The translations under genes were made by a program, and so were the position numbers. A stretch of 64,000 bases of DNA from positions 224,001 to 288,000 of the forward strand of contig CP147779.1 of assembly GCA_037308085.1 (NCBI GenBank), in the 5' to 3' direction. Each line of letters begins with the position of its first letter. Position 1 is the stretch's first letter. The DNA comes from Promethearchaeati archaeon SRVP18_Atabeyarchaeia-1. Lineage in GTDB: Archaea; Asgardarchaeota; Atabeyarchaeia; Atabeyarchaeales; Atabeyarchaeaceae. Shown piece by piece: positions 10,298-16,081 of the stretch. The notes beneath the pieces were generated by a model. That model saw nothing but the letters and a program-made list of their open reading frames with translations. It ran no database searches and was not told the DNA's origin.

Positions 10298-11513
10298 TTA
10301 ATAGCTGCTTGAGGTGACTTCTCCGCTTCTGCTCCCCGTCTTGTTTAAGGATCGGATCACAGCTACATGGGCGGAGCGATCCAACCTGAACCGCAGGCCT
10401 TCATCCTGGTTTTCCAACAGGTTTAAGCAGGCGTTTAGATGCCGATCTATCCTGCAACACTCTAGGATCTTTGCTTTCGGGTCTACCATGGCCCACCCAC
10501 ATACCGCGCAGACCCTGGAAGTGTTCCAAGGACTCACTTCAACGACTCTGCCTCCCTCCCAGAGAGCCTTGTACTCGATGTAAGTTTGTAGCCTCCTGAA
10601 GCTCCACGAGTTCAGCCTCCGCTTCATCTTCCTGGAGTACTTGCTTACCTTCTGAATTCTACCGTTGAAAATATTGACGCCTAAGACTTTCTTATTAATT
10701 GTCCTGCGGATATGTTTAAGGTCTTCGAGAATAATGCCTTGCTCTCTGGTTTTTGCTTGCTTCACTATGGCTGAGCTCACCTGGTGCAGAATTGTTTTGA
10801 CCTTGTTGTTCTGATTGGTGAACCAGTCTCTCTGTATCTTCTTCGCTACCCGTCTATCCTTCACGTACTTGGCTTGGACCCTTCGCACCCGCCCAAAGTA
10901 TCCGTGCCTAACCTCTGAAACCCTTGATAAGTCATGGCTTTCAAAGACCAATTCTCCGCTTTCATTCACGCCGCCTCCATCGATTGATCGCTCATTCGTG
11001 TCATACGCCACATAACTCTTCGGTTCGGTAGCTTCAACGGTCTTGGAGAAGACCACCGATACCATGCAAGTAGTCAAGGTTATTGAGCCCAACTTGAGCG
11101 TAGCATCCGATAGGAGCCGCGCTGCTCTCTTGTGCAGGGGACGTAGAAGTACTCTCTTGGCTTGATTGGGATTCTCAGGTTGCCGTCAACAACTTTGTAG
11201 GCTTGGTTTCCCAGTTTGGCCGTGAGCTTCGTGGCTCTCGGCACTCGAACATTCTGATGCCTTCTCTTCGCTTTCCGGTAGTTCTTCAAGATGGGGGTGG
11301 CAACCTCGATGGCGGAGAGGCTGTACCAGGTGTGGAGACCGAGACCATTTAGCTGGTGGTATGTCTCGCTCTGCAGTCTTAGCCTGCAGGTCACATTCTT
11401 CTCTAGACCGACGCGGATGCAGTGGTTGACCATGCTCCTGAAGGCTTCAAGGAGACTAAGAACACCGCTTCGAGGCTCGTATGATATCTGCACCCCGCCT
11501 TAACTGCCTGCAT
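10298..11513 (-). pseudogene. tnpB: IS200/IS605-family TnpB (IS1341-like, no tnpA), frameshifted
   Basis: RuvC-I YVAYDTNE, RuvC-II ILEDL, Zn finger TSRVCAVCG..CC, DRHLNA; frameshifts near 11137 (C run) and 11494 (G run). Confidence 0.85.
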
Positions 11514-11645: not shown

Positions 11646-11740
11646 GGGCCCGTGGCCTAGTCAGGATAGGGCGCCGGCCTTCGACCTTGTTCCTGGAAGA
11701 CAGCCGGGGGTCGTGGGTTCAAATCCCTCCGGGCCCGCCA
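11646..11740 (+). tRNA. tRNA-Arg(TCG) with 17-nt intron at 37/38 (11685-11701), CCA encoded
   Basis: Anticodon stem CCGGC/GCCGG; BHB helix CTTC/GAAG, bulges GAC and ACA. Confidence 0.95.
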
Positions 11741-13168: not shown

Positions 13169-14392
13169 CTAGAATCTGACTGGAGATAGGAGCATGATCA
13201 ATGGACCTTGCTTTAGATTCCTTGACTCTTCTCTGACTTCTTCCGAAATTGTCTTGAGCAGCTGATAATGCTCATCAACACTGTCGACTGCAACATCGTG
13301 GTAGAGCGCAATGGTGTGCAATATTCCTTCTCTGGCAAGAAACTGTATTACTATCGGGTTTATCGAGTACTCGTTTTGACTTGGATTGTTTGGGGTCATG
13401 ACTATTCTTCTGCTTTCGGGGGTAGCTCTTAACTTGGAGGCTGCCCAGGCTATTTGATTCATGGTTTCGAGTTCGCCTTCGTCATTCTTTCCTTCAAACT
13501 GCATTAATGCTCCTCCAAGTCTTCCATGATCTAGTGCTACCCTCGTACGCAAACCTGTCGCTCTTTGCGCCTTGGTCGGCTGCGATTTGAGACACACGTG
13601 CAAAGCTACTTTGTCTAATGAACGAGAATAGTCTTCTACGACTCTTTGGACGGCAACAGAGCACCTTTCTTTGTCGGTTATGCCTCGAAGCACAGGACCG
13701 AAGATTGTTGAGGCGTTTTCCGCTGGTTTTTGGTTGGATGAGGAATAAGAGGATTTGAATCGCTCCTTTATTTCGTCAAGGGATGTGTGATATAAGTGCG
13801 CCGAACCAGACACAGTTAGTACATCACCACGTGCGGAGGACCCGCCATAATGCGCAGCAACTTCCGTTAGGAAGACGGCATAGCTTCCTGAGACATCTTC
13901 AGACCAGGCCCTCGCGATGTCATTGCTCCGAATATAATCTATTATGTTTATTTTCTCGTTCACTTTCTGGAAGGCCACTATGTCGATGCAGGGGGGATTT
14001 GGACTCCTTGAGTCTTCTATTGGATTCCAGAGCTGTGCAAAAGCTACGTTGCCGCTTCTCTTCAAGCTGTCAACTACGTGCTGAATTTGGTTGAACCCAA
14101 ATCTCTTCTTCATGCACCAGCCGTAGGTATAGGTATGCTCCCCTTTTTCGGAGGATGAGTACTGTGGCCAGTACTGGTGTTCGATTACGTCAGGCGACAG
14201 ACCGATGTAGTTCCGCGGAGTAATGGCGCCCGTTCTCCAGTCGGTTAGATGAGCAATCCCGCAGATACATTCTAGTGTCTTTTGCCTTTTCCCTTCAGTA
14301 TACACCATTGAGCCCTTCTCGGAGATAGTGCCGACCATTGAACGCCAAGCCGAGTCGATGTTTCTGCTTCGGGTCATGAACGGACCATACAT
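13169..14392 (-). CDS. Thymidylate-synthase-superfamily protein with two tandem TS-like domains
   Basis: YTYG..NQI, PPC, RSND, SAHLY in domain 1; NQI..SRR..IQF in domain 2; ATG at 14392 follows AGGAGG. Confidence 0.8.
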   Translation of the reverse strand: MYGPFMTRSRNIDSAWRSMVGTISEKGSMVYTEGKRQKTLECICGIAHLTDWRTGAITPRNYIGLSPDVIEHQYWPQYSSSEKGEHTYTYGWCMKKRFGFNQIQHVVDSLKRSGNVAFAQLWNPIEDSRSPNPPCIDIVAFQKVNEKINIIDYIRSNDIARAWSEDVSGSYAVFLTEVAAHYGGSSARGDVLTVSGSAHLYHTSLDEIKERFKSSYSSSNQKPAENASTIFGPVLRGITDKERCSVAVQRVVEDYSRSLDKVALHVCLKSQPTKAQRATGLRTRVALDHGRLGGALMQFEGKNDEGELETMNQIAWAASKLRATPESRRIVMTPNNPSQNEYSINPIVIQFLAREGILHTIALYHDVAVDSVDEHYQLLKTISEEVREESRNLKQGPLIMLLSPVRF

Positions 14393-14435
14393 TCCTTGTC
14401 GCCTCCTTCTAGTCGCGCCTGAGTCAAGCAAAGGC

Positions 14436-15968
14436 TCAGCTTTGCTTGCCGCCACCGAGTACGTCATAGTAGGGGTGCGGTCTGTGAGGGAGTACACCAA
14501 GCGTCTTGTATACCTCATCGGCAACTGCAACTTGGCATGCTGCTACGCTCGGGAAGATCCTTGTGGCATTCTTGATCGGACCATACATGTTCATGTCGAC
14601 TCCGAAAATTGTGGGAAGAGTGTAATCGAAGCTGAACTCAATGTCTTTTCGTTCCAGTTGAATAGAGTGCAGATTATGTATGCCTATGGCTGTGGGAAAC
14701 CCAAGCCGGCTTTTTATAATCCATGCCTTTTCAAGCGCGCTCAACGCGCCTCCGCCTAGCCTTGGGACTCCTGGATCGATAATTGGCCTGTGCACGATTT
14801 CACCGAAGTACTTCAGAATTTGGGCTGCCTTCTTTATCGAATCTTCCGCCGACTCGGTATAGGATAAGCAGATAGCGTACTCTGCCCCTCCTATGTTCTT
14901 GAGAGCATTGTATTCCTCTCTGCTTGGAGCCATGAGAGAGTTGTAGATTACCCTTTTTTCGACTCCTATGTCTTTGGCGATTTTCAAGCCATGGACGCGT
15001 GTGTCCATGGAGCTGGAGTCGATGATAATCGGTGAATCAGTATGGTCGACGGTGAACAGTATGTATCTCTCAATAGCCTCGACAGTCTGTCCGACGATAT
15101 GAACTATCACAGGAATGCTATAGTGGATCGACAGTTCGTCCTGTCGGTATATGAAATCTGCAGCGGCTTTCTGGTCGAAACCCCCTTTTCTCGGTTCTGT
15201 GACGATCTTGTCCTTGGTGTAGAAGATCGTCCCCGCCATGGCTGTAGGATATTCCCCTCTCTGCCCTCCGATCTTTAGTCCGCACAGGTCGTAGACTTGG
15301 GGACTTACCTCAGAAAATGTGAACATTGATCCTAATGAACTTCTTGTCTTCTGCTTGCTTCCCTTGATCTTCTTAACATAGCGGCTGACTGCTTTCTCCC
15401 AGTCGTTCAGTCCCTTTGGCTCAGGGGGAAAGATCGGCTCCATCTTCAGGGAAATTGGGTCCGTTCTTGCAGATAACTCGTCAACTTTCATGCAGATCTT
15501 TTCAAGCGATGTCTCATTGATCATGTCGACGACTAAAACTACTTGCTGTCGGAATCGAGTAACGTATTTCGACGGCTCGTCTCCCCTGAAATAGGTGGGT
15601 AGAAGAGTGGGAATCGTGCCATTGCTGCCTATGACAACATGTTTCTCACTCAGACCGTTCGAATGAAGAGCAATCAACGTTTGTCCGGGTTCGTGACCTC
15701 TAACTCGTTCACCACAGACTAGCAGGTACATGATATGCGGATTAGATATGATATTCTGAACTATCTTTGCTATTCCCTCGTTCTCAGTCTCGCAGAATCC
15801 AGAGATGGCAACTTTTTCGCCTCTGGCTCCTACGATCTTCTTTGGCAAATCATAGGATCCACAAGTCATGACGGCAATCCTCGCATCTGGATTACCGAGG
15901 GAATAGTCGCCCGCCAGCGGTGGCCACTTTCCTTGCTTCTTGGAATGATGATCCTTATCGCTTTCCAT
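14436..15968 (-). CDS. MtrA (corrinoid)-MtrH (methylpterin methyltransferase) fusion
   Basis: WPP..GDY..GNP, ETENEGIAKIVQNIISNPHI..CG..VRGHEPGQ (MtrA); GGQRGEYPTAMAGTIFY, IIIDSS, IYNS, DPG, GIHN, MYGPI (MtrH). Confidence 0.9.
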   Translation of the reverse strand: MESDKDHHSKKQGKWPPLAGDYSLGNPDARIAVMTCGSYDLPKKIVGARGEKVAISGFCETENEGIAKIVQNIISNPHIMYLLVCGERVRGHEPGQTLIALHSNGLSEKHVVIGSNGTIPTLLPTYFRGDEPSKYVTRFRQQVVLVVDMINETSLEKICMKVDELSARTDPISLKMEPIFPPEPKGLNDWEKAVSRYVKKIKGSKQKTRSSLGSMFTFSEVSPQVYDLCGLKIGGQRGEYPTAMAGTIFYTKDKIVTEPRKGGFDQKAAADFIYRQDELSIHYSIPVIVHIVGQTVEAIERYILFTVDHTDSPIIIDSSSMDTRVHGLKIAKDIGVEKRVIYNSLMAPSREEYNALKNIGGAEYAICLSYTESAEDSIKKAAQILKYFGEIVHRPIIDPGVPRLGGGALSALEKAWIIKSRLGFPTAIGIHNLHSIQLERKDIEFSFDYTLPTIFGVDMNMYGPIKNATRIFPSVAACQVAVADEVYKTLGVLPHRPHPYYDVLGGGKQS

Positions 15969-16081
15969 GGCTTAGTTCAGACCTACAGAGAAATATATAA
16001 GTATGCACTTCAACCACCATCTAAAGAGCGTGGGATCCAATAACCTATAACATGGTACCCGGTGGAGAGGAGATCTTAGAA

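What the first reader, a model, noticed from the sequence alone, without database searches (positions are those of the whole stretch)
13169..15968. MtrA-MtrH fusion paired with a thymidylate-synthase-like gene: candidate cobalamin-dependent nucleotide methylation system
Seen: two co-oriented genes about 43 bp apart. The first fuses a soluble MtrA corrinoid domain (His ligand retained in VRGHEPGQ, no TM anchor) to an MtrH TIM barrel; no other mtr subunits are in the window. The second is TS-like with the catalytic Cys (PPC, 13988-90), RSND and H-x-Y. Established: MtrH moves a methyl from methyl-H4MPT/H4F onto the MtrA cobalt; TS activates pyrimidine C5 through a Cys adduct at C6. Inference: methyl-pterin to Co-CH3 to pyrimidine C5, a route distinct from ThyA and ThyX that needs no dihydrofolate recycling and could give non-methanogen MtrAH fusions a function unrelated to energy conservation.
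Basis: partly seen in the sequence, partly recalled or inferred. Interest (0 to 1): 0.8.

Follow-up and report, generated by a model that had tools for sequence, protein, structure and literature searches.

The report
B12 methyl relay feeding thymidylate synthase
In five families of Asgard archaea the only recognisable enzyme for making the DNA base thymine is an unusual single-chain thymidylate-synthase relative that always sits directly behind, and is predicted to bind, a vitamin-B12-type methyl-carrier protein, which points to an untested third way of making thymidylate.

Summary
Observation confirmed. The window is from an Asgard archaeon (Atabeyarchaeia-like). A soluble MtrA-MtrH fusion (cobalt ligand His92/Glu62 and pterin residues invariant in 36 homologues) lies 43 bp upstream of a thymidylate-synthase (TS)-fold gene. 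The pair is adjacent in 18 of 18 carrier genomes (5 families) among changing neighbours. No carrier has ThyX, 16 have no other TS and 17 no thymidine kinase. A predicted MtrAH-TS complex scores 0.89 against 0.33 for the best control. Best reading (0.5): methyl-pterin to cobalt to pyrimidine C5, probably on dCMP, supplying dTTP. Chemistry and substrate are inferred only. Against: related archaeal TSs occur without MtrA (115 of 135 genomes in one family), and a distant tandem TS has no MtrAH neighbour. The fusion is published with unknown function; I found no paper linking it to TS. This scan reported the same pair earlier in other genomes.

The parts
14436..15968 (-). MtrA-MtrH fusion gene (510 aa, soluble): corrinoid domain, linker with low-confidence stretch 205-214, MtrH/MtgA-type pterin TIM barrel
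15432..15935 (-). MtrA domain (residues 12-179); His92 (15693-15695) and Glu62 (15783-15785) match His84 and Glu54 of solved MtrA; invariant in 36 of 36 fusions
14496..15299 (-). MtrH domain (residues 224-491); T247, D317, N343, D398, N432 match MtgA S32, D102, N129, D194, N227; H290 replaces D75. Residues 227-339 form most of the predicted TS-docking face
13169..14392 (-). Single-chain tandem TS-fold gene (407 aa), the only TS-fold gene of the genome
13757..14392 (-). Catalytic N-half (residues 1-212): Cys135, R155-S156-N157-D158, family-specific R161, Asp166 (= E. coli Asn177), H199, Y201; no RR pair
13172..13720 (-). Degenerate C-half (about residues 225-407): TS fold, keeps R328-R329 (13406-13411), lacks Cys, RSxD and HxY
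14402..14407 (-). AGGAGG ribosome-binding-like site 10 nt before the TS start, in the 43-bp gap
   Evidence: sequence; function not tested
15994..16000 (-). TTATATA, archaeal TATA-box-like element 25 nt upstream of the fusion's ATG; candidate promoter of a two-gene transcript
   Evidence: sequence; inference, not tested

Best explanation
The two genes encode one methyl-relay enzyme built like methionine synthase but with a TS-fold acceptor. (1) The MtrH barrel binds methyl-H4MPT or methyl-H4F and methylates cob(I)amide on the tethered MtrA domain (follows from Mtr/MtgA biochemistry; residues shown intact). (2) The TS docks on the side of the MtrH barrel (predicted). (3) Its two halves form one composite site in which Cys135 adds to C6 of a pyrimidine deoxynucleotide and makes C5 nucleophilic (residues shown; geometry inferred). 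(4) C5 takes the methyl from CH3-Co(III), returning Co(I) and leaving the pterin reduced (inferred; no direct precedent found). Asp166 makes dCMP the likelier substrate (about 60:40 over dUMP); 5-methyl-dCMP would reach dTTP through kinases and a dCTP deaminase (inferred). The module serves as these lineages' de novo thymidylate source.
For: Adjacent and co-oriented in 18 of 18 genomes with the long TS, across 5 families and 7 genera, and no fusion without the TS among 400 Asgard genomes. Also adjacent in 7 of 7 contig look-ups with different flanking genes, gaps -4 to 43 bp, and in 14 of 14 metagenome loci that have upstream DNA; these sets overlap and are kin. ThyX 0 of 18, a second TS only in G120 and G121, thymidine kinase 1 weak hit in 18, thymidylate kinase 5 of 5. 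Cobalt ligand pair invariant, pterin site invariant, corrinoid reactivator RACo in 16 of 18, Mer above cut-off in 4 of 5, dCTP-deaminase family in 5 of 5. Predicted complex: score 0.89, best of 3 controls 0.33, runs agree in at least 91% of contacts, partner pLDDT at least 89; this mark was reached by 58 of 80 solved complexes and 2 of 110 mismatched pairs, counts only roughly valid here. Asp at position 177 in 33 of 33 homologues against Asn in 131 of 135 scorable other relatives; Asp marks cytidylate enzymes (PMC5175136, PMC13326640). Best structural matches are a dCMP monooxygenase and MilA (Z 21.8, rmsd 2.2, 199 aligned; Z 20.3, rmsd 1.8, 199 aligned) ahead of ThyA (Z 18.3). A separate link: His-retaining MtrA-DUF4346 genes lie beside TS and dcd in two other lineages.
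Against: No biochemical data. Archaeal-type TS occurs without MtrA in family f20 (TS match 115 of 135, MtrA 1 of 135), so the fold needs no corrinoid in general, and most lost folate contacts are shared with those enzymes. A distant tandem TS pair (P0157 with Asp, P0151 with Asn, 43% identical) exists; P0157 has no MtrA or MtrH within 6 kb, so neither the tandem layout nor the Asp is tied to MtrAH, and Asn/Asp can swap. The three-domain MtrA-TS-DUF4346 fusions lack the cobalt His in 29 of 29. In the predicted complex TS touches MtrH, and only one MtrA-side residue (188) is listed; no MtrA-to-active-site contact was modelled. CobS is absent from the own genome and 9 of 18 carriers, so corrinoid would have to be salvaged. 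The dCMP-deaminase family is found in only 2 of 5, and action of these Dcd proteins on 5-methyl-dCTP is untested.
Confidence: 0.5

Rival explanations
1. The tandem protein is a conventional reductive TS (methylene-pterin as C1 and hydride donor, on dUMP or dCMP). MtrAH binds it or shares its operon to manage the pterin C1 pool or for regulation, without passing a methyl to C5.
For: Related archaeal TSs occur without MtrA. Archaeal extracts make dTMP from dUMP with formaldehyde and modified pterins (PMC9931769). D158 (= pterin-binding D169) is invariant. SHMT is present in 5 of 5. P0157 has no MtrAH neighbour.
Against: It does not explain why an intact cobalt ligand and methyl-pterin site are kept in a partner that is never separated from the TS; MtrAH has no other acceptor module; an Arg and an acid replace the folate-contacting L172 and F176 only in this family among those aligned.
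Confidence: 0.28
2. The module makes a modified cytidylate (5-methyl- or 5-hydroxymethyl-dCMP) as an end product for DNA modification or another use, and dTMP comes from an unrecognised enzyme.
For: Asp at position 177 and Asn/Asp at L143 match phage dCMP-modifying enzymes; the best structural matches are cytidylate enzymes.
Against: The pair sits among housekeeping genes, has no relative in viral contigs, and is present wherever ThyX, other TS and thymidine kinase are missing. A polar residue at L143 is general in archaeal TS.
Confidence: 0.1
3. MtrAH passes methyl to coenzyme M, to a core methionine synthase, or into the Wood-Ljungdahl pathway, as suggested in print, and the TS is an incidental neighbour.
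For: Proposed in PMC11291895 (acceptor possibly CoM) and PMC9635834. MtrA is predicted to donate methyl to MesA (PMC7857596). All carriers descend from one clade, so adjacency could be inherited.
Against: The pair survived at least five changes of flanking genes with overlapping or near-touching stop and start codons; the complex prediction passes; core MetE-type genes are missing in 3 of 5 carriers, including this genome.
Confidence: 0.07

Closest known systems
MtrA and MtrH of methanogen methyl-H4MPT:CoM methyltransferase (PDB 5L8X, 5LAA, 9QTP); MtgA of Desulfitobacterium (6SK4)
   Same: Folds (Foldseek E 2e-23 and 1.5e-12), His/Glu cobalt ligand pair, pterin-binding residues
   Different: Fused, no membrane anchor, no mtr operon here, H290 for MtgA D75; predicted partner is a TS-fold protein
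Asgard MtrAH fusion of Valentin-Alvarado et al. 2024 (PMC11291895)
   Same: The same protein family; a 65% identical homologue is from Ca. Atabeyarchaeum deiterrae
   Different: That paper leaves the function open, suggests CoM as acceptor, and does not contain the word thymidylate
Homodimeric ThyA, especially the short archaeal type (NCBIfam TIGR03283)
   Same: Fold, catalytic Cys, RSxD, HxY, RR pair
   Different: Single-chain pseudo-dimer with one composite site; Asp for Asn177; Arg for Leu172; score below family cut-off; fixed corrinoid partner
Cytidylate-modifying TS homologues: T4 dCMP hydroxymethylase, MilA, flavin-dependent dCMP hydroxylase (9IQC)
   Same: Asp at position 177; top structural matches; precedent that the TS fold can change cofactor (folate to flavin, PMC13326640)
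   Different: Those are phage or antibiotic enzymes, homodimers without a corrinoid partner; this one is chromosomal and the sole TS-fold gene
Cobalamin-dependent methionine synthase MetH and core synthase MesA
   Same: Works like: pterin barrel to mobile corrinoid domain to acceptor module; MtrA predicted as biosynthetic methyl donor (PMC7857596)
   Different: The acceptor here would be a carbon nucleophile made by a Cys adduct, not a Zn-thiolate; different corrinoid fold
Three-domain MtrA-TS-DUF4346 proteins (uncharacterised; bacteria and archaea)
   Same: MtrA-fold and TS domains joined; nearest sequence relatives outside the family
   Different: Cobalt His and Glu lost (29 of 29), Asn at position 177 (27 of 27), complete single TS domain, no MtrH

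Membership tests
ThyA thymidylate synthase | TS fold | tested here: met
   AF2 model pLDDT 88, pTM 0.91; Foldseek E 7e-12; Z 18-22
ThyA thymidylate synthase | Catalytic Cys, R166/S167, D169, H207, Y209 | tested here: met
   C135, R155, S156, D158, H199, Y201 invariant
ThyA thymidylate synthase | Asn177 selecting uracil | tested here: not met
   Asp166 in 33 of 33 homologues and 18 of 18 genome copies
ThyA thymidylate synthase | One domain per chain with both Cys and RR; homodimer with two sites | tested here: not met
   RR only in the Cys-less C-half; C-half has TS fold, TM 0.55-0.60
ThyA thymidylate synthase | Folate-contact residues E58, W80, W83, L143, H147, L172, F176 | tested here: not met
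   Replaced or unalignable; mostly also true of short archaeal TS, so weak as a discriminator
ThyA thymidylate synthase | Methylene-pterin as C1 and hydride donor | not testable with these tools
   needs an assay
Methanogen-type TS (TIGR03283) | Score above curated cut-off 174.55 | tested here: not met
   94.9 bits; 0 of 23 genomes above cut-off
dCMP/CMP-modifying TS homologues | Asp at position 177; Ser167/His207/Tyr209 for deoxyribose | tested here: met
dCMP/CMP-modifying TS homologues | Activity on dCMP | not testable with these tools
   needs an assay; Asn/Asp differs between P0151 and P0157
ThyX | Thy1 domain PF02511 | tested here: not met
   no match in the genome
Energy-conserving Mtr complex | MtrA His84/Glu54 cobalt ligand pair | tested here: met
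   H92/E62 invariant in 36 of 36
Energy-conserving Mtr complex | MtrA membrane anchor | tested here: not met
   MtrH follows instead; best hydropathy window 1.2
Energy-conserving Mtr complex | Membrane subunits MtrB-G in the genome | not tested
   not searched; PMC11291895 reports the full complex absent from these lineages
MtrH/MtgA methylpterin:corrinoid methyltransferase | Pterin site S32, D75, D102, N129, D194, N227 | tested here: met
   T247, D317, N343, D398, N432 invariant; D75 position is H290
MtrH/MtgA methylpterin:corrinoid methyltransferase | Corrinoid binding and methyl transfer | not testable with these tools
   no cobalamin ligand is offered for modelling; needs an assay

The most novel reading that the evidence does not exclude
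A third class of de novo thymidylate synthesis: a corrinoid-dependent enzyme that transfers an intact methyl group from methyl-pterin through methylcobalt to C5 of dCMP, followed by deamination, with no dUMP methylation and no pterin oxidation; possibly one branch of a wider MtrA-linked TS group that includes the bacterial and archaeal MtrA-DUF4346/TS operons.
Probability: 0.35. Interest if true: 0.92.

Novelty: categorically new. Interest (0 to 1): 0.76.

Why it matters
Only two routes to dTMP are known, ThyA and ThyX, both using methylene-pterin. A corrinoid relay would be a third, and would add a rare case of carbon methylation by methylcobalt without SAM. It would give a function to MtrAH in non-methanogens, which the literature calls unclear (PMC9635834, PMC11291895), and it makes archaeal TS biochemistry, described as scarce (PMC9931769), testable with two soluble proteins and commercial methylcobalamin. 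Even if the relay is wrong, a natural single-site TS pseudo-dimer with a cytosine-type residue as a cell's only TS is unusual; in that case the class drops to 'new variant of a known kind'.

Tried and rejected
FolA absence as evidence: rejected, since FolA is also missing in 8 Asgard genomes with ordinary TS, and flavoprotein-family candidates for a pterin reductase are everywhere. Interface conservation: predicted interface residues are not more conserved than the rest (p 0.23 and 0.30; the comparison includes buried residues, so it is weak). Direct N-half versus C-half comparison found nothing (BLAST E 19, hhalign probability 0.3); the duplication rests on second TIGR03283 hits, motif alignment, secondary-structure order and the Atlas structure match. 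Polar residue at L143 as a sign of hydroxymethylase: not discriminating. Three-domain MtrA-TS-DUF4346 fusions as proof of cobalt chemistry: rejected, His lost. Pattern scans of genome contigs gave nothing for P0001 or the P0157/P0151 pair; the genome of P0157 is not held, so MtrAH elsewhere in it is unknown. No relatives in viral contigs; phage hits are only distant TS. No RNA holder listed. Sigma-70 promoter scan is at chance level and unsuited to archaea. The tree is the quick version only; the family is one clade (SH-aLRT 98), its sister link to P0157/P0151 is weak (89). Paper searches for MtrA/MtrH with thymidylate synthase, DUF4346, and B12-dependent TS found no description; the library is open-access only. 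No source was found for Dcd acting on 5-methyl-dCTP.

Full report
Observation. Both genes are present as described. ORF A (14436-15968, minus strand, 510 aa) has MtrA at residues 12-179 and MtrH at 224-491, matches solved MtrA, MtrH and MtgA by sequence and fold, and has no membrane segment. ORF B (13169-14392, 407 aa) starts 43 bp later, behind an AGGAGG, and carries Cys135 at 13988-13990, RSND and HxY. A TATA-like element lies 25 nt before ORF A, so a two-gene transcript is plausible; this is inference. The flanking genes (EMG1 family upstream, a convergent aminotransferase downstream) show no evident link.

Organism. Homologues come from Asgard archaea. The genome is one 2.81-Mb contig with two further MtrA-like genes, which fits Atabeyarchaeia-1 of PMC11291895. 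That paper describes the fusion as new, with unclear activity, and does not mention thymidylate.

The fusion is intact as a methyl carrier. His92 and Glu62, equivalent to the cobalt ligand His84 and its partner Glu54 (PMC4915002), are invariant in 36 fusions. The MtgA pterin residues (PMC7154762) are kept as T247, D317, N343, D398 and N432, with His290 in place of Asp75. The model shows two confident domains joined by a low-confidence linker, as expected of a mobile corrinoid domain.

The TS is not an ordinary ThyA. Aligned to E. coli ThyA, the N-half keeps Cys146, Arg166, Ser167, Asp169, His207 and Tyr209 but lacks Arg126-Arg127. The C-half keeps that pair (R328-R329) and has lost the rest. 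The C-half gives second TIGR03283 hits in most carriers, repeats the secondary-structure order and matches TS models at TM 0.55-0.60. In ThyA the RR pair serves the other subunit's site (established; PMC5175136), so one composite site is the natural reading. Position 177 is Asp in all 33 homologues, against Asn in 131 of 135 scorable other relatives. Asp here marks cytidylate enzymes, and the best structural matches are a dCMP monooxygenase and MilA. Ser156, His199 and Tyr201 point to deoxyribose.

Linkage. Of 400 Asgard genomes, 18 in five families carry the long TS, all 18 have the fusion directly upstream, and no fusion occurs without it. Seven contig look-ups show the pair among at least five different sets of neighbours, with gaps of -4 to 41 bp; 14 of 14 metagenome loci with upstream DNA agree. 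The carriers form one clade, so these are not independent origins, but the pair has outlasted repeated rearrangement.

Need for thymidylate. This gene is the genome's only TS-fold gene. ThyX is absent from all 18 carriers, a second TS occurs in two, and thymidine kinase gives one weak hit, while thymidylate kinase is present. Several carriers are single-contig or near-complete genomes. The simplest reading is that this module supplies dTTP. Methyl-H4MPT can be made (Mer; Mch), corrinoids can be reactivated (RACo 16 of 18), and dCTP-deaminase-family genes are present. CobS is missing here, so the cofactor would be salvaged.

Complex. The predicted MtrAH-TS complex scores 0.89 against 0.33 for the best control, with at least 91% agreement between runs and partner pLDDT of at least 89; 58 of 80 solved and 2 of 110 mismatched pairs reach this mark, counts only roughly valid with my own alignments. 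I know of no solved complex of this kind. The contact is between MtrH residues 227-339 and the N-terminal elements of both TS halves plus the linker; the invariant pterin residues are not in it. This supports binding. It does not show methyl transfer, and no MtrA-to-TS active-site contact was modelled.

Mechanism. Most likely (0.5) the pair works like methionine synthase with a different acceptor: methyl-pterin to Co(I) on MtrA, then CH3-Co(III) to the C5 nucleophile formed by the Cys135 adduct. Shown: residues, linkage, absence of alternatives. Predicted: binding. Inferred: the cobalt-to-C5 step, dCMP as substrate, and deamination of the 5-methyl product. Partial precedents are MtrA as predicted donor for MesA and the folate-to-flavin switch in phage TS homologues.

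Limits. Archaeal-type TS occurs without MtrA in family f20 (115 of 135 with TS, 1 with MtrA; Asn-type single domains). A distant tandem TS with Asp has no MtrAH neighbour, and its 43% identical relative has Asn. The widespread MtrA-TS-DUF4346 fusions have lost the cobalt His. On the other side, His-retaining MtrA-DUF4346 genes sit with TS and dcd, once also tmk, in two other lineages, so MtrA-fold proteins are tied to thymidylate genes more than once. A conventional methylene-pterin TS with an associated MtrAH remains the main rival (0.28).

Verdict. A real, tightly conserved and probably interacting module with no description found in the searched literature; the scan's earlier notes report the same pair in other genomes and agree, which is not independent support. 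It works like a MetH-style corrinoid relay ending on a TS fold; it is not a member of ThyA, ThyX or the Mtr complex by their defining features. Interest 0.76; class categorically new on the best reading, new variant if the rival holds.

Noticed in passing
L113:6001-7251 (P0157) and L112:142-1389 (P0151): A second, distant family of tandem single-chain TS proteins (415-416 aa, no Pfam hit) in unidentified, probably archaeal contigs; one has Asp and one Asn at position 177; no MtrA/MtrH within 6 kb of P0157.
   Followed up: partly
L108:5436-8660 and L110:6001-9097: dcd, His-retaining MtrA-DUF4346, an Asn-type TS with KTND instead of RSxD and an insertion, and (L108) tmk clustered together in two other lineages.
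   Followed up: partly
L079:4449-5882 and L080:3847-5184: Three-domain MtrA-TS-DUF4346 fusions in two Asgard genomes (G288, G283); cobalt His replaced by an aromatic residue.
   Followed up: partly
L084:6797-8364 (G000:C1 about 1576800-1578400): Tandem stand-alone MtrA-like genes in this genome, one fused to a 2x[4Fe-4S] ferredoxin, both with the His; similar ferredoxin-MtrA fusions in other Asgard genomes (L088).
   Followed up: partly
L155:2274-5564 and L154:2753-3928: The genome's stand-alone MtrH genes: one follows a lactate-racemase-like gene and converges on mch; the other follows a PfkB kinase.
   Followed up: no
L136-L137 (G319:C1 2502652 and 2520576-2523140): In family f31 (probably Thorarchaeia) an mtrH-mtrA-mtrH cluster next to DUF2114 lies about 19-21 kb from the short Asn-type TS in many genomes; conserved block, not adjacent.
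   Followed up: partly
L085:2237-2857 and L086:5062-5805: Second, divergent short TS in G120 and G121 with KS in place of the RR pair.
   Followed up: no
L083:3255-4481: G306 fusion is 408 aa with about 100 residues missing inside MtrH; deletion or assembly error.
   Followed up: no
L081:1570-3123: TusA-like domain fused to an MtrA domain in G397.
   Followed up: no
window 10298-11493 (-): TnpB/Cas12f-like gene split over two frames, beside a tRNA-like element at 11646-11740 whose anticodon ARAGORN could not assign.
   Followed up: no
L153:2339-4301 (G000:C1 about 2311800-2313800): A flavoprotein-family gene (possible pterin reductase, untested) near a third, divergent dCTP-deaminase-like gene.
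   Followed up: no
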